The notes: generated by a model not told the origin, from the letters alone. A DNA stretch of 64,000 nt from Bacteroidia bacterium (GCA_044229315.1 JBGATG010000007.1:4903-68902); one strand, 5' to 3'. Shown: positions 11,013 to 37,370, numbered from the stretch's first letter. Made by a program: numbers and translations.

Positions 11013-11288
11013 ATGGAATTTGTTGTCTACATAATGTATTCAAATAGTAGTAAGCGTAATTATACTGGTTACACGTCTAATCTGATAGAGCGATTTCGTT
11101 CACATAATATTTACGGAAAAGATAGTACAAGACTTTACAGACCTTGGACAGTAGTGCATGTTGAATTTTTTCGAACCAAAGAAGAGGCGATGAAACGAGA
11201 AAAGTACTTTAAGGCCGGGCGTGGATCAATTTTGAAGAATTCAATTGTCTCTGAATTCATGGCTCGTTGGGCTCATACCCTTCCCTAA
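11013..11288 (+). CDS. Small stand-alone GIY-YIG nuclease family protein
   Basis: VYIMYS...YTGYT...RFRSHN...EAMKREK (GIY-YIG, Arg and Glu motifs). The C-terminal ARWAHT is translated tRNA sequence. Confidence 0.85.
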   Translation: MEFVVYIMYSNSSKRNYTGYTSNLIERFRSHNIYGKDSTRLYRPWTVVHVEFFRTKEEAMKREKYFKAGRGSILKNSIVSEFMARWAHTLP

Positions 11289-16704: not shown

Positions 16705-18546
16705 ATGCGTAAGCTTTTCTCCGCTTTAAAATACATTAAGAATTATAAGGGAAATACAACCCTTAATATCCTATTCAATATCCTTTTTGCCGTTTTCAAT
16801 GCGGCAGTGTTCGCGCTTATTTCGCCTTTCCTGGATCTTTTATTTAAGAACGATTCTCTAAAGGTTCACGATATCATTTTAAAAGGGGAACCACATTTCT
16901 CTTTCTCTTCTTCGTATTTCTCGGAGGTGACCAACTATCATTTGGCGAGTTTGGTAATGATAAAGGGAAAGGTGGGAGCGCTCATCACCATTTGTTTTTT
17001 GGTGGTACTTGTTACTTTATTCAAGAATATTTGCCGTTACATGGCTATGTTCTTTATTGCACCCATTCGCAATGGTGTAGTTCGCGATCTAAGAAATAAA
17101 ATGCATAAAAAAGCATTGGATCTTCCACTGAGCTATTATAGCGAAGAGAAAAAGGGGGATCTCATGAGCAGGATGACAACAGATGTGATGGAGATCGAAT
17201 GGAGCATCATGCAAACACTGGAGATGATCTTCAGAGAACCTTTAACGGTTGTGATCATTTTTACAGTGATGTTGTTGATCAGTGTGAAGCTTACGCTTTA
17301 TATTTTACTACTTCTTCCCATTGCGGCTCTGTTCATCGTATTAATTTCAAAGAGTCTGAAGAATTCTGCAAGGAAAGCTAAAGAAACGCTTGGGAGTTTA
17401 ATTAGTTTGATAGAAGAGACCTTGGGAAGTATTAAAGTGATCAAGGCCTTTAATGCCGAGAAACATTTACAAGATAAATTTGAGGCAACTAATGAGAAGT
17501 TCTATAAGCAATCAGTAAAAGTATATCGTCAAACCGATCTTGGTTCTCCGCTTACCGAAACAATTGTTACCGCTATTTTAATGTTGGTGTTGTTCATTGG
17601 TGGAGGAATGGTATTTAGAAAAGAACTTGAGCCGGCATTATTTATTACTTATTTTGGATTGGCTTCACAATTAGTACCACCGATCAAACAGATCACACAA
17701 TCCTATAATAATATTCAAAAAGGAATTGCCAGCGAAGAGCGTATTGATAAAATTATTGGTGCTAGTTTAGAGATCCACGATGCTCCAAACGCAAAAGAGA
17801 TCAAGAGCTTGGATTCTACCATTGAATATAAAAATGTGTCGTTCATGTATCATAAAGGCGGCGCAGGTTATGTGCTGAAAGACGTGAATTTGAAAATTGC
17901 GAAGGGCAAAACCGTTGCGCTGGTAGGGCAGAGCGGAAGCGGAAAAACAACTATGGCGGATATGCTGCCGCGTTTTTATGATACGGATAAAGGCGAGATC
18001 CAGATCGATGGAGTGAATATCAAAGAAGTAAGTACAAAATCATTAAGAAATATTATTGGTGTTGTTACTCAGGAAAGTATTTTGTTCAATGATTCCATTT
18101 ATAATAACATTGTATTTGGTATTGAAGGAAAAACCGAAGCCGACGTGATCAATGCCGCTAAAATTGCGAATGCGCATAGCTTTATTGCTGAAATGCCTCA
18201 GGGATATCACACTAATATTGGCGATAGAGGAAGTAGGTTAAGTGGTGGACAAAGACAACGTATTAACATTGCCCGTGCAGTATTGAAAAATCCTGATATT
18301 TTAATTTTGGATGAAGCAACCTCTGCTTTAGATACAGAAAGCGAAAAATTAGTTCAGGAAGCTTTACAAAAGCTAATGCACAGTAGAACCAGTATCGTGA
18401 TCGCTCACCGTTTATCTACTATTATGAGCGCCGATGAGATCATTGTTTTAAATAAAGGGGAAATTGTTGAGCGCGGTAATCACCAACAGTTATTGGCTCT
18501 TAATGGCCAGTATAAAAAGCTGTGTGATATGCAGAATATTGCTTAA
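16705..18546 (+). CDS. ABC exporter, fused permease/ATPase (MsbA-like)
   Basis: TM domain plus GQSGSGKT, LSGGQRQR and LILDEATSALD. Confidence 0.92.
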   Translation: MRKLFSALKYIKNYKGNTTLNILFNILFAVFNAAVFALISPFLDLLFKNDSLKVHDIILKGEPHFSFSSSYFSEVTNYHLASLVMIKGKVGALITICFLVVLVTLFKNICRYMAMFFIAPIRNGVVRDLRNKMHKKALDLPLSYYSEEKKGDLMSRMTTDVMEIEWSIMQTLEMIFREPLTVVIIFTVMLLISVKLTLYILLLLPIAALFIVLISKSLKNSARKAKETLGSLISLIEETLGSIKVIKAFNAEKHLQDKFEATNEKFYKQSVKVYRQTDLGSPLTETIVTAILMLVLFIGGGMVFRKELEPALFITYFGLASQLVPPIKQITQSYNNIQKGIASEERIDKIIGASLEIHDAPNAKEIKSLDSTIEYKNVSFMYHKGGAGYVLKDVNLKIAKGKTVALVGQSGSGKTTMADMLPRFYDTDKGEIQIDGVNIKEVSTKSLRNIIGVVTQESILFNDSIYNNIVFGIEGKTEADVINAAKIANAHSFIAEMPQGYHTNIGDRGSRLSGGQRQRINIARAVLKNPDILILDEATSALDTESEKLVQEALQKLMHSRTSIVIAHRLSTIMSADEIIVLNKGEIVERGNHQQLLALNGQYKKLCDMQNIA

Positions 18547-18590
18547 CTTTTTTTGGGACAATAGATCTTTATTGTTGCCGTTGATTTAGC

Positions 18591-18785
18591 ATGAGAGTAT
18601 TCTTAATTTTGGTTGGATCTTTAATATTACTTTCCTGTAAAAAGGACCATGTTTGCGAGTGCACGGTTGAGATCGGTAGCAGCGCCCCAACAAAGGCCGT
18701 TATTCACGATACAAAAAGGAAAGCAAAGGAACAATGCTCTGGGAAAATGACATTTGTTACGGAGCATTGCGAAATCAAGAATTGA
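18591..18785 (+). CDS. Small Cys-rich lipoprotein
   Basis: Lipobox LLSC-KK followed by CxC...C...C. Confidence 0.7.
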   Translation: MRVFLILVGSLILLSCKKDHVCECTVEIGSSAPTKAVIHDTKRKAKEQCSGKMTFVTEHCEIKN

Positions 18786-18815
18786 ACCGGGTTTTAATTC
18801 CAATGATAGCAATCG

Positions 18816-19544
18816 GATTAAATCGAACTGCTCTAAGTGTCACCCTGAGCGAAGTCGAAGGGTGCAGCGTTAAGTTGTGTAATTTTTAAACATCGCACAC
18901 AGGTTTCGACTCCGCTCAACCTGACACGCCAAACAGAAGGCTGATCTCGCTCAAGGGCAATGCCGTGATTAAATCGAACTGCTATGCGTGTCACCCTGAG
19001 CGGAGTCGAAGGGTGCGGTAGTAAGTCTGGGGATAGCGCTGGTATCATTCATGCACTTTGAAAATTCTTTTAATTTATCCCACTCACCATTAATAAGCGC
19101 TTCCTTTTTTCTTCTCGTCCAGCCTTTAATACGTTTTTCCCATTCGATCGCTTTTAAATATTCAGTGAACATTTCACAATACACCAACTTTACGGGTTTT
19201 CGGTGACAAGTATAAGAATCGGTTACCGTTCCGCTGTTATGCTGCGCGACGCGCAATTCGATATTATTTGTTAAACCTGTATAATAAGAATCGTCCGAAC
19301 ATTTTAAAATGTATACATATAATACTTTTGATCGCGATAAATAAGTTTCAGAAAAAGCCATGATACAAAACTACATTTGGGTTGAAAAAATCCTTGCTAC
19401 AAATTGTAGTAATTTTAGATTTCGCCACAGGCTTCGACTTCGCTCAGCCTGACACGGCCGACAGAAGGCTGATTACGTCAAAATAAGATACGTAAAGTAA
19501 AACCCTGTTGCTAGGCGTGTCACCCTGAGCGGAGTAGAAGGGTG
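18816..19544. mobile_element. REP-like palindrome array enclosing a GIY-YIG nuclease gene (REPtron-like)
   Basis: TGTCACCCTGAGCG(G/A)AGT(C/A)GAAGGGTG-type copies at 18838-18864(+), 18904-18926(-), 18989-19015(+), 19432-19454(-) and 19518-19544(+), with longer flanking direct repeats. Confidence 0.7.
18969..19361 (-). CDS. Small stand-alone GIY-YIG nuclease family protein
   Basis: YVYILKCSDDSYYTGLTNNIELRVAQHNSG...AIEWEKRIKGWTRRKKEALI; TAGTTTTG -7-like box at 19373-19366. Confidence 0.9.
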   Translation of the reverse strand: MAFSETYLSRSKVLYVYILKCSDDSYYTGLTNNIELRVAQHNSGTVTDSYTCHRKPVKLVYCEMFTEYLKAIEWEKRIKGWTRRKKEALINGEWDKLKEFSKCMNDTSAIPRLTTAPFDSAQGDTHSSSI

Positions 19545-19588
19545 ATGCGCAAATTCGTGTAATCTGTGGCATTGAGCGCGGTATTAGT

Positions 19589-20203
19589 TTACTTCCAATG
19601 ATAACACTTCGACGTATTTCTCTTCCTCTTCCAAATATCCCAACCTCCAACATAAAAGATCCTTTTCAATTGTTTATGAAAGGCAGTATGTTTTTTGCGT
19701 TTACCTTTCCAGTGTTTCGTTGTAGAATAACGTTTTATAACGTAGGAGGACCCGGAACGTCCCATCTTTTGCTCACTCAAAATGAGTTCTCCCGGTTCAT
19801 ATTTAATTTTTCCCAGAACATCCTCACCTTCGGCAATATTTATTCTCATCAGATCATCCGAGCTTACTCCGCCAAATTTTGATTGGTTGATTGGATTTAG
19901 AATGGTGTGTGCAATAGAATTGTGGTGCTTGTTCCCTAAAGCATCGTCACTCACGCCAACAAATTTTTTGTCATCGTTCAACTTGATCTCTTTATTATTG
20001 TTTACGGCGCTATTTTGTGCCAACAATTGCTTGTATTCCTCTTCTGCCTGCTGTTGGTATTTATGACAAGGACATTTCGGATTTCTCGGATCATTGATCG
20101 GATATTCACCTTGTGCTTTTGCAGAGGTAACAAAAAGGAAAATAAGAGCGATCAAAAGACCGCCCTTATTCCCCTTGTGTTTATTTACTCTGCTAAGGTT
20201 CAA
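19589..20203 (-). CDS. Hypothetical exported protein
   Basis: Hydrophobic signal-like segment, DPRNPKCPCHKY motif, basic C-terminus; abuts the macroglobulin stop. Start uncertain. Confidence 0.6.
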   Translation of the reverse strand: MNLSRVNKHKGNKGGLLIALIFLFVTSAKAQGEYPINDPRNPKCPCHKYQQQAEEEYKQLLAQNSAVNNNKEIKLNDDKKFVGVSDDALGNKHHNSIAHTILNPINQSKFGGVSSDDLMRINIAEGEDVLGKIKYEPGELILSEQKMGRSGSSYVIKRYSTTKHWKGKRKKHTAFHKQLKRIFYVGGWDIWKRKRNTSKCYHWK

Positions 20204-37343: not shown

Positions 37344-37370
37344 CGTCACCCTGAGCGGAGTCGAAGGGTG
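37344..37370 (+). repeat. Single REP-like copy
   Basis: CGTCACCCTGAGCGGAGTCGAAGGGTG, identical over 26 of 27 nt to the copy at 18989. Confidence 0.85.

What the first reader, a model, noticed from the sequence alone, without database searches (positions are those of the whole stretch)
18816..19544. GIY-YIG nuclease embedded in a five-copy REP-like array: a REPtron-like system with a non-HUH enzyme
Seen: alternating copies +,-,+,[gene],-,+ of a ~27-nt imperfect hairpin (CACCCT...AGGGTG) with a TGTC/CGTC foot. The array has unit structure: 18816-18865 repeats at 18967-19016 (151-bp period), and about 18875-18945 repeats at about 19404-19473, so an empty 151-bp unit sits next to a gene-containing unit. 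A near-identical solo copy lies 18 kb away at 37344. Established: REP elements are classically mobilised by HUH (RAYT) transposases flanked by their REPs. Inference: here a small GIY-YIG endonuclease takes that role and may nick or cut at the hairpins to spread them. No RAYT gene is in the window.
Basis: partly seen in the sequence, partly recalled or inferred. Interest (0 to 1): 0.82.

Follow-up and report, generated by a model that had tools for sequence, protein, structure and literature searches.

The report
Small nuclease gene nested in hairpin repeats
A tiny GIY-YIG nuclease gene sits between inverted copies of a hairpin repeat scattered through this Bacteroidota genome; the pairing is real and conserved across the phylum, but it fits the Ssn nuclease/hairpin-repeat systems described in 2025 rather than being a new kind of system.

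Summary
Five 27-nt hairpins (TGTCA tag, 6-bp stem, loop GAGCGNAGTCGA) lie at 18838-19544 in the order +,-,+,[gene],-,+, and a sixth lies at 37344. The 130-aa ORF on the minus strand (19361..18969) is a single-domain GIY-YIG nuclease. The genome holds 44 such hairpins. They are almost all extragenic, and their stems covary.

In 80 loci of homologous genes from other genomes, the same hairpin is 37-fold enriched within 300 bp of the gene, typically one copy upstream and an inverted copy at the 3' end. The genome's three RAYT-like genes carry a different repeat. Two hairpin-rich Bacteroidota genomes have no Y1 transposase gene at all, so RAYTs are not needed.

This architecture is already published. 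Ssn nucleases (Chenal et al. 2025) are small GIY-YIG proteins flanked by YGTCA-tagged hairpin repeats, and they cut single-stranded DNA just 5' of the hairpin. The window's protein is 36-40% identical to proteins flanked by the canonical repeat, but it falls in a separate clade, and its hairpins escape the published search motif.

Verdict: a new member, with its own hairpin class, of a known kind. Whether the nuclease spreads the repeats remains untested.

The parts
18793..18811 (.). Left copy of a 19-bp direct repeat (TTTAATTCCAATGATAGCA) that brackets the whole array
   Evidence: family D3, 17/19 identical to 19588-19606. The right copy is the 3' end of the ORF 19589-20203 (-). Unexplained: possibly a duplication made when the array arrived.
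18816..18949 (+). Unit 1: gene-less doublet, made of left end, a short spacer and right end
   Evidence: left 52 nt are 90% identical and right 53 nt are 83% identical to the ends of unit 2; the spacer also matches. Folds as one long imperfect hairpin, -19.8 kcal/mol, z = -2.3.
18838..18864 (+). Hairpin A1: TGTCACCCT-GAGCGAAGTCGA-AGGGTG
18900..18926 (-). Hairpin B1: TGTCAGGTT-GAGCGGAGTCGA-AACCTG, with a compensatory stem
18967..19477 (+). Unit 2: the same two ends enclosing the nuclease gene
   Evidence: Equals unit 1 plus a 382-bp insert at 19019-19400.
18989..19015 (+). Hairpin A2, at the 3' end of the gene; its complement encodes the ORF tail PFDSAQGDT
   Evidence: The same hairpin-coded tails occur in many homologues.
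18969..19361 (-). GIY-YIG nuclease gene, 130 aa. The conserved core is about residues 13-105; the last ~25 residues are read from the spacer and hairpin A2.
   Evidence: PF01541 E = 1.7e-17, single domain. Catalytic-type residues Y17, Y27, G29, R37, H41 and E75 are invariant in 40 homologues. Closest solved structures are UPF0213 proteins 1zg2 and 1ywl. 36-40% identical to NTS-flanked Ssn-type proteins.
19428..19454 (-). Hairpin B2, upstream of the gene and on the gene's strand: TGTCAGGCT-GAGCGAAGTCGA-AGCCTG
19496..19575 (+). Unit 3: left end only (hairpin A3 at 19518-19544, loop with one mismatch GAGCGGAGTAGA) plus part of the spacer
   Evidence: family D1, third copy at 68%; the spacer motif AAATTCGTGTAAT is shared with unit 1.
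19588..19606 (.). Right copy of the 19-bp direct repeat
   Evidence: family D3
37344..37370 (+). Solo hairpin CGTCACCCT-GAGCGGAGTCGA-AGGGTG with an extended outer stem
   Evidence: The most stable single copy, -7.6 kcal/mol.

Best explanation
The locus is an Ssn-type module. It consists of a small single-domain GIY-YIG nuclease gene bracketed by inverted copies of its probable cognate DNA hairpin. The hairpin has a YGTCA tag, a short stem that is free to vary as long as it pairs, and a conserved apical sequence GAGCGNAGTCGA. Next to the gene-containing unit lie a gene-less doublet with the same two ends and a half unit. About 40 further copies are scattered between genes.

By analogy with the characterised Ssn nucleases, the protein most likely binds the folded hairpin when the DNA is single-stranded, for example during replication, repair, conjugation or DNA uptake. 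It would then cut that strand a few nucleotides 5' of the tag. Because the two flanking hairpins are inverted with their tags outward, the predicted cuts fall on opposite strands at the two outer borders of the unit.

Shown here:
- the gene-repeat pairing and its conservation
- stem covariation
- extragenic dispersal
- independence from RAYTs
- homology to Ssn-type proteins flanked by the canonical repeat

Inferred:
- binding and single-strand cutting at this particular hairpin
- the biological role

I rate two roles as about equally likely. One is selfish upkeep or spread of the repeats and of the gene cassette, as in REPIN/RAYT systems. The other is repeat-directed cutting of single-stranded DNA that modulates recombination or incoming DNA, as in Neisseria.
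For: - Anatomy.
- Protein: GIY-YIG domain with conserved catalytic residues.
- Repeat in this genome: 44 exact loops. The inner four pairs are paired in 42-44 of 44 without any stem filter. The TGTCA tag is present in 39 of 44. Only 11 of 44 loops lie in ORFs of at least 120 aa, which cover 91.5% of the genome, p = 1e-26.
- Local association across genomes: in 80 homologous loci the hairpin lies within 300 bp of the gene in 39, at 1.78 per kb against 0.048 per kb in the outer flanks. Most of the remaining loci carry related hairpins with the 11-nt loop GAGCYTGTCGA or other variants.
- Unbiased genome sample: the gene is flanked by + and - hairpins in G123, G147, G219, G027, G079 and G263.
- Co-variation of protein and repeat: the hairpin type is clustered on the protein tree, 7 changes against 30.9 for shuffled labels.
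- Genome-level association: 34 of 44 hairpin-rich genomes have a GIY-YIG hit, against 129 of 257 others.
- Known system: Ssn nucleases and their flanking NTS/SRM hairpins, ssDNA-specific cutting 5' of the hairpin, and the authors' own IS200/RAYT analogy (PMC11893778).
- Homology to that system: genes flanked on both sides by canonical NTS in Burkholderiales encode proteins 36-40% identical to the window's protein, tblastn E = 1e-10 to 1e-15.
- Signs of decay and turnover: a second copy in this genome carries an internal TAG and degenerate flanking hairpins, and several homologues elsewhere carry stops.
Against: - The published SRM search motif finds none of these hairpins: 2 hits in the genome against 7 in the reversed control.
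- The protein falls outside the clade flanked by canonical NTS. It is at least as similar to UPF0213 proteins such as BH0048, E = 4.6e-14. Membership of cd10448 could not be checked.
- The conservation logic is the reverse of NTS. Here the loop is constant and the stem is free. In Neisseria the stem sequence matters and the loop does not.
- Single hairpins are weak as DNA.
- Ten hairpin-rich genomes, for example G235 with 40 copies and G012 with 22, have no GIY-YIG hit at E <= 1e-12. About half of the genomes with a close homologue show few hairpins of the two searched types.
- No empty-site polymorphism was found. The nearest relative, 82% identical in the neighbouring gene, carries a different gene at this spot.
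Confidence: 0.7

Rival explanations
1. The hairpins are ordinary REPs moved by the genome's RAYT-like HUH transposases, and the GIY-YIG gene is a bystander that happens to sit in a REP cluster.
For: The genome has three Y1_Tnp genes. Their flanking REPs also begin with TGTCACCC. 28 of 32 genomes rich in the 12-nt-loop hairpin have some Y1_Tnp match.
Against: - The RAYT-like genes are flanked by a different repeat with a short GC stem and a 4-nt loop (TGTCACCCC-TTCG-GGGGT, GGTCCC-TTTA-GGGACC). None has the GAGCGNAGTCGA hairpin within 1.8 kb.
- Y1_Tnp occurs in 220 of 301 Bacteroidota genomes whether or not they carry hairpins.
- G055 (64 hairpins) and G187 (36 hairpins) have no Y1_Tnp match, yet their GIY-YIG genes are flanked by hairpins.
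- A bystander would not show 37-fold local enrichment across 80 loci from many families.
Confidence: 0.05
2. The GIY-YIG gene is a free-standing homing endonuclease gene whose target is the hairpin doublet. It invades existing doublets, so unit 1 is the empty site and unit 2 the occupied site. The hairpins themselves spread by some other means.
For: Unit 2 equals unit 1 plus one clean 382-bp insert placed directly after hairpin A. GIY-YIG homing endonucleases exist (established knowledge: I-TevI, Seg proteins). Paralogues within one genome differ by about 24% in DNA, yet each sits between hairpins.
Against: The protein has no DNA-binding domain besides the ~90-aa GIY-YIG core, unlike known GIY-YIG homing enzymes. 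Characterised relatives cut only single-stranded DNA. This reading leaves the origin of more than 40 gene-less copies unexplained.
Confidence: 0.12
3. The hairpins are host regulatory or structural elements, such as terminators, mRNA stabilisers or insulators, that act at the RNA or DNA level. The nuclease gene merely shares this regulation.
For: The copies are extragenic and often lie between convergent genes, as this array does. REP elements in other bacteria have such side roles (established knowledge).
Against: There is no T-run after the stem; the consensus 3' flank is GTGGCGAAAAG. The stem has 6 bp with a 12-nt loop and low stability. There is no Rfam match. A 12-nt loop and a TGTCA tag conserved across a phylum with free stems point to recognition by a protein. 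This reading does not explain why one gene family is bracketed by the repeat.
Confidence: 0.08

Closest known systems
Ssn nucleases with NTS/SRM hairpin repeats (SsnA of Neisseria meningitidis and homologues; Chenal et al., Nat Commun 2025, PMC11893778)
   Same: - A single-domain GIY-YIG protein of about 95-130 aa.
- The gene is bracketed by inverted hairpin repeats that start with a YGTCA tag.
- The same repeat is dispersed between genes in tens to hundreds of copies.
- The proteins are homologous, 36-40% identical to proteins flanked by canonical NTS.
- The authors also noted the resemblance to an IS and to REP/RAYT systems.
   Different: - The hairpin body differs. Here there are 4-6 variable, covarying base pairs and a conserved 12-nt apical sequence. 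In NTS there is a conserved 8-9-bp stem with a 4-nt loop of little importance.
- The published SRM search motif misses every copy.
- The protein belongs to a separate clade.
- Copy number is lower, about 44 against hundreds.
- Bacteroidota are not named in the paper's main text.
- No biochemistry exists for this clade.
REP/REPIN elements with RAYT genes ('REPtrons'; E. coli, Pseudomonas)
   Same: Short extragenic palindromes, often in inverted doublets, with one or a few enzyme genes flanked by inverted copies of the repeat. A conserved tag lies 5' of the hairpin. Action on single-stranded DNA is likely.
   Different: The enzyme is a hydrolytic GIY-YIG nuclease, not an HUH/Y1 transposase that forms a covalent 5'-phosphotyrosine link and can rejoin DNA. 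No strand-transfer chemistry is known for GIY-YIG enzymes. This genome's own RAYT-like genes carry another repeat.
UPF0213 / YhbQ family (bacterial Slx1-like GIY-YIG proteins; solved structures 1zg2 and 1ywl)
   Same: These are the closest solved structures by sequence, E = 4.6e-14. They have the same size and the same single-domain build.
   Different: No repeat partnership is described for them as far as I could find (one search returned no paper). E. coli YhbQ sits on a long branch in the tree.
CGTC-tagged REP superfamily (Di Nocera et al. 2013, PMC3733652)
   Same: Palindromic repeats with a terminal CGTC or TGTC tag, reported in Bacteroidetes among five phyla and stated to lack a dedicated transposase.
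   Different: Those families have 8-9-bp stems and 4-5-nt loops. They resemble the repeat that flanks this genome's RAYT-like genes more than they resemble the GAGCGNAGTCGA hairpin.

Membership tests
Ssn nuclease / SRM repeat system | Small protein consisting of a single GIY-YIG domain | tested here: met
   130-aa ORF with only PF01541, residues 15-86. Homologues are 101-130 aa.
Ssn nuclease / SRM repeat system | Catalytic residues of the GIY-YIG fold retained (Tyr of GIY, Tyr of YIG, Arg, metal-binding Glu) | tested here: met
   Y17, Y27, G29, R37, H41 and E75 are invariant in 40 homologues. The paper inactivated SsnA with Y6A, Y17A and E64A.
Ssn nuclease / SRM repeat system | [quoted passage not shown] | not testable with these tools
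   No CDD search was available. The Pfam model is superfamily-wide.
Ssn nuclease / SRM repeat system | Sequence homology to Ssn proteins flanked by canonical NTS/SRM (the paper used tblastn E < 1e-10) | tested here: met
   tblastn E = 1e-10 to 1e-15 and 36-40% identity to NTS-flanked genes in Burkholderiales (L100-L104, L108). N. meningitidis SsnA itself was not compared.
Ssn nuclease / SRM repeat system | Falls inside the clade of repeat-flanked Ssn proteins | tested here: inconclusive
   The NTS-flanked proteins form their own clade (97/82), apart from the 82-row clade that holds this protein. The tree rests on 107 columns, and deep forks are unresolved.
Ssn nuclease / SRM repeat system | Gene flanked on both sides by inverted hairpin repeats carrying a 5' HGTCW tag | tested here: met
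   Hairpins B2 (upstream) and A2 (3' end), both with TGTCA tags facing outward. The same layout occurs in 39 of 80 loci and in G055 and G187.
Ssn nuclease / SRM repeat system | Repeats match the published SRM search sequence HGTCWYN(0-2)YYVSBRHN(0-5)WNVSBRGN(0-2)RNCYNB | tested here: not met
   2 hits in the whole genome against 7 in the reversed control, and none at the hairpins. The motif does find canonical NTS in the Burkholderiales loci.
Ssn nuclease / SRM repeat system | Same repeat dispersed, mostly between genes | tested here: met
   44 copies in 4.01 Mb. 33 of 44 lie outside ORFs of at least 120 aa.
Ssn nuclease / SRM repeat system | Cuts only single-stranded DNA, a few nucleotides 5' of the hairpin | not testable with these tools
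   Needs purified protein and oligonucleotide substrates.
REP/REPIN-RAYT (REPtron) | An HUH/Y1 (RAYT) gene flanked by the repeat | tested here: not met
   Three Y1_Tnp genes exist on other contigs and are flanked by a different REP. None lies within 1.8 kb of the GAGCGNAGTCGA hairpin.
REP/REPIN-RAYT (REPtron) | Short extragenic palindromes that also occur as inverted doublets | tested here: met
   Doublets at 18838/18900 in the window and at five further sites in the genome.
GIY-YIG homing endonucleases (I-TevI, Seg type) | A separate DNA-binding domain joined to the GIY-YIG domain | tested here: not met
   There is no second domain. The C-terminal tail is read from the hairpin and varies among homologues.
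UPF0213 / YhbQ | Sequence similarity to family members with solved structures | tested here: met
   1zg2 E = 4.6e-14 and 1ywl E = 1.1e-10. This does not separate UPF0213 from Ssn.
Intrinsic terminator | Stable GC-rich stem followed by a T-run | tested here: not met
   6-bp stem, 12-nt loop, -4 to -7.6 kcal/mol. The 3' flank consensus is GTGGCGAAAAG.

The most novel reading that the evidence does not exclude
The TGTCA-stem-GAGC(N2-3)GTCGA-stem hairpins and their own GIY-YIG clade form a distinct Ssn-like lineage. The lineage is spread over Bacteroidota and reaches Ignavibacteriota, Nitrospinota and Pseudomonadota. In it the enzyme would read the tag and the apical loop rather than the stem. The hairpin-gene-hairpin unit and the gene-less doublet would be an autonomous/non-autonomous pair that still moves by nuclease-made single-strand cuts plus host repair. 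That would make it a bacterial mobile element driven by a GIY-YIG enzyme, and a candidate answer to which enzyme serves tagged REP families that have no known transposase.
Probability: 0.2. Interest if true: 0.8.

Novelty: new member of a known kind. Interest (0 to 1): 0.42.

Why it matters
The finding extends the Ssn nuclease/hairpin partnership to Bacteroidota with a hairpin class that the published search motif cannot see. The family's true spread and its range of specificities are therefore probably underestimated.

The reversed conservation pattern, with a constant loop and a free stem, gives a clear biochemical prediction. It could yield a single-strand-specific nuclease with a new recognition rule.

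The side-by-side gene-less and gene-containing units give a concrete substrate for testing whether such modules move.

The finding also has a practical use for annotation. The hairpins add spurious tails to ORFs, such as PFDSAQGD, SRLRSK and PPSTSSG.

Tried and rejected
- **Rfam.** A scan of 18300-20000 at E <= 1 found nothing.
- **Literature.** Searches for GIY-YIG with REP, REPIN, RAYT or YhbQ returned nothing relevant.
- **Published SRM motif.** It finds no hairpin of this type.
- **Empty site in relatives.** The nearest genome, G313, is only 82% identical in the neighbouring gene and carries an unrelated small gene at this spot. No clean empty site could be defined.
- **Hairpin pair 542 bp apart (C1:936839/937381).** It holds no nuclease remnant.
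- **Folding energy.** It is not informative for single hairpins.
- This was a mis-specified pattern of the same length as. It only repeated that search, although it shows that relaxing three loop positions adds almost no hits.
- **First classifier of flanking hairpins.** It under-called the 11-nt-loop type. One search showed that most 'unlabelled' loci do carry related flanking repeats.
- **NCBIfam scan.** It failed on a wrong frame for the second protein and was not repeated.
- **Plasmids and phages.** Homologues are nearly absent from plasmids (3 of 72,556 records) and rare in phages (13 records). Carriage on such elements is therefore not the explanation.

Full report
**What is in the sequence**

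Between two convergent genes lies a 776-bp array. On the left is a small lipoprotein-like ORF that ends at 18785. On the right is the ORF 19589-20203 on the minus strand.

The array holds five copies of one 27-nt element at 18838 (+), 18900 (-), 18989 (+), 19428 (-) and 19518 (+). A sixth copy lies at 37344 (+).

Each copy reads TGTCA (CGTCA in the solo copy), then a stem, then GAGCGRAGTCGA, then the complementary stem. The plus-strand copies use CACCCT/AGGGTG. The minus-strand copies use CAGGTT/AACCTG and CAGGCT/AGCCTG, so pairing is kept through changes on both sides.

The core pattern occurs 8 times in the window against 1.7 expected, and none of 100 shuffles reached 8.

The ORF 19361..18969 on the minus strand has 130 codons and matches Pfam GIY-YIG with E = 1.7e-17. 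No other domain is present. Its last residues, PFDSAQGDT, are simply the complement of hairpin A2.

**Unit structure**

Unit 1 (18816-18949) has no gene. Unit 2 (18967-19477) holds the gene. A left half of a third unit follows.
- The two ends of unit 1 match the ends of unit 2 at 47/52 and 44/53.
- The spacer of unit 1 (18872-18899) matches the stretch just upstream of the gene's start codon (19401-19429) at 23/30. Only 1 of 500 shuffles scored as well.
- Unit 2 is therefore unit 1 plus one 382-bp insert (19019-19400) placed directly after the left hairpin.

In both units the two hairpins are inverted, with their TGTCA tags facing outward.

A 19-bp direct repeat (18793-18811 and 19588-19606, 17/19 identical) brackets the whole array. 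I cannot explain it.

**The repeat in the whole genome**

The assembly has 4.01 Mb in 7 contigs. It holds 44 exact matches to the 12-nt loop.
- Without any filter for pairing, the four base pairs next to the loop are paired in 42-44 of 44 copies, with several pair types at positions 3 and 4.
- TGTCA precedes 39 of 44 copies.
- Only 11 of 44 loops lie inside ORFs of at least 120 codons, although such ORFs cover 91.5% of the genome (p = 1e-26).
- As single-stranded DNA the individual hairpins are weak, -4 to -7.6 kcal/mol and no better than shuffles. The whole gene-less doublet folds into one long imperfect hairpin of -19.8 kcal/mol with z = -2.3.

The evidence for structure is therefore covariation, not stability.

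**The gene-repeat link elsewhere**

The protein has more than 1,300 relatives in public data, mostly from Bacteroidota. Many of them end in peptides that are translations of the same hairpin, such as PFDSAQGD, LLDSARS, SRLRSK and PPSTSSG.

In 80 genomic loci that encode relatives:
- The GAGCGNAGTCGA hairpin lies within 300 bp of the gene in 39 loci. Its density is 1.78 per kb there against 0.048 per kb in the rest of the 5-kb flanks, a 37-fold difference.
- The usual layout is one copy on the gene's strand 40-150 bp upstream and an inverted copy at or just past the 3' end, as in the window.
- Stems differ widely between genomes: 27 different inner stems among 126 loops. The loop and the tag stay constant.
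- Most loci without this hairpin carry a sister form with an 11-nt loop (TGTCA-stem-GAGCYTGTCGA-stem) or other variants. These include loci from Nitrospinota, Ignavibacteriota and Pseudomonadota.
- On a protein tree the hairpin type is clustered, needing 7 changes against 30.9 for shuffled labels. Taxonomy is a confounder here.

In an even sample of 301 Bacteroidota genomes:
- The 12-nt-loop hairpin occurs in 54 genomes and the 11-nt form in 78. Reversed-pattern controls are near zero.
- 44 genomes have at least four copies of either type. Of these, 34 have a GIY-YIG hit to the family profile, against 129 of the other 257. The odds ratio is about 3.4 and is not corrected for phylogeny.
- In G123, G147, G219, G027, G079 and G263, the hairpin and gene coordinates from independent searches show the gene sitting between a + and a - hairpin.

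This genome also has a decayed second copy. It is a paralogue on another contig with a TAG inside the YIG motif, again between two degenerate hairpins.

**Are RAYTs involved?**

The genome has three Y1_Tnp genes of about 150 codons.

Each of the three genes is flanked by a different palindrome with a short GC stem and a 4-nt loop: TGTCACCCC-TTCG-GGGGT, GGTCCC-TTTA-GGGACC or CCGCCCC-TTTA-GGGGCGG. No GAGCGNAGTCGA hairpin lies closer than 1.8 kb to any of them.

Across the 301 genomes, Y1_Tnp is found in 220, with or without hairpins. G055 (64 hairpins, a closed 2.6-Mb genome) and G187 (36 hairpins) have no Y1_Tnp match at all. Both nevertheless have GIY-YIG genes flanked by hairpins. RAYTs are therefore neither necessary for this repeat nor associated with it.

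**Comparison with what is known**

I found no Rfam family and no paper that links GIY-YIG with REP or RAYT terms.

That paper describes the following:
- Ssn proteins are single-domain GIY-YIG proteins of about 94 aa (CDD cd10448).
- Their genes are flanked, often on both sides, by hairpin repeats called NTS or SRM. The N. meningitidis consensus is CGTCATTCCCGCGMAVGCGGGAATCYRG.
- The repeats are present in up to hundreds of copies per genome.
- Four purified homologues cut only single-stranded DNA, a few nucleotides 5' of their own hairpin.
- In N. meningitidis the enzyme lowers transformation by DNA that carries NTS.
- The authors themselves note that NTS-ssnA-NTS looks like an insertion sequence and compare it with IS200/IS605, REP and BIME elements.

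**Is the window's system a member of that family?**

I found canonical NTS in 71 of 301 genomes of the order around an Acidovorax locus. I then searched the ten richest of these with the family profile.

Several of the genes found are flanked on both sides by canonical NTS. One example is L102, with NTS at 1449 (+) and 1808 (-) around a gene at 1480-1782. Their products are 36-40% identical to the window's protein, with tblastn E = 1e-10 to 1e-15. They share the motif REKQIKxWxRxxKxxLI.

Three results set the window's system apart:
- The NTS-flanked proteins form a separate clade (97/82) from the 82-row clade that contains the window's protein.
- The closest solved structures are UPF0213 proteins.
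- The published SRM search motif finds none of the hairpins here: 2 hits against 7 in a reversed control.

The conservation logic also differs. In NTS the stem sequence matters and the loop does not. Here the stem is free and the 12-nt apical sequence is fixed.

I therefore file the locus as a new member of the Ssn kind with its own hairpin class. Its assignment to cd10448 is left open.

**Mechanism**

Most likely, the protein recognises the tag and apical part of the folded hairpin in single-stranded DNA and cuts 5' of the tag. With tags outward, the two flanking hairpins would direct cuts on opposite strands at the unit's outer borders. This rests on homology, and I give it about 60%.

The purpose is open. 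Several features look like a selfish element with non-autonomous derivatives:
- the gene-less doublet with identical ends
- the half unit
- paralogues and decayed copies
- a patchy distribution
- near-absence from plasmids and scarcity in phages

However, GIY-YIG enzymes have no known rejoining chemistry. The demonstrated role of Ssn in Neisseria is restriction of incoming single-stranded DNA.

I give the spreading role about 35-40%.

**Verdict**

In novelty, this is a new member of a known kind.

Noticed in passing
window 11034-11288 (+) (G000:C2:15936-16190): A second, shorter GIY-YIG gene (PF01541 E = 1.9e-14) of a different subfamily. An earlier first-reader note says it is fused to a tRNA-fMet 3' half. 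In my tree it sits on a very long branch next to the clade flanked by canonical NTS.
   Followed up: partly
L001 750-960; L002 806-979 and 1500-1574; L003 1111-1180 and 1719-1857 (G000:C5:76542, C1:475987, C1:1440949): Three RAYT-like Y1_Tnp genes are each flanked by TGTC-tagged short palindromes (TGTCACCCC-TTCG-GGGGT, GGTCCC-TTTA-GGGACC, CCGCCCC-TTTA-GGGGCGG). Di Nocera et al. 2013 stated that CGTC/TGTC-tagged REPs lack a dedicated transposase. Here such REPs sit around RAYT-like genes.
   Followed up: partly
window 18793-18811 and 19588-19606: A 19-bp direct repeat (17/19 identical) brackets the whole hairpin array. The right copy is the 3' end of the neighbouring ORF, and the closest relative G313 has only one copy. 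It could be a duplication made when the array was inserted. Neither Ssn-type nor HUH-type mechanisms are expected to produce one.
   Followed up: partly
G000:C5:121336-121614 (-) (locus L004): A decayed paralogue of the nuclease gene, with a TAG inside the YIG motif. It is flanked by degenerate hairpins GTCGCT-GAGTTCATCGA-AGCG and GGTCCCT-GAGGTTCTCGA-AGGGTC.
   Followed up: partly
L015 about 6155 (-) and L082 about 773 (+): Canonical Neisseria-type NTS sequences (CGTCATTCCCGCGTAGGCGGGAATCTAC and TGTCATTTCAGCGTAGGCTGGAATCCAG) occur in two Bacteroidota loci (Maribellus, Aquimarina). The classic repeat therefore also exists in this phylum.
   Followed up: no
L069 (Acidovorax), L060, L075 and many proteins: The 11-nt-loop hairpin GTCACCCTGAGCTTGTCGAAGGGTG and its relatives are translated into recurring peptide tails (PRLRQAQPER, QPELVEG, PSTSSG, SRLRSK). 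In L069 they fuse the nuclease ORF to the next gene, giving a 496-codon open frame. This is a source of annotation artefacts.
   Followed up: no
L004 1873-1938 and 2335-2379 (G000:C5, about 122170-122680): Two inverted arrays of a 7-8-nt AT-rich tandem repeat (ATGAATT/ATGATTT) lie about 400 bp apart, near the decayed nuclease gene.
   Followed up: no
Genomes G235, G012, G275 (Bacteroidota sample): These genomes carry 22-42 hairpins of this family but have no GIY-YIG hit at E <= 1e-12. They may hold orphan repeat populations or a partner too divergent for the profile.
   Followed up: no
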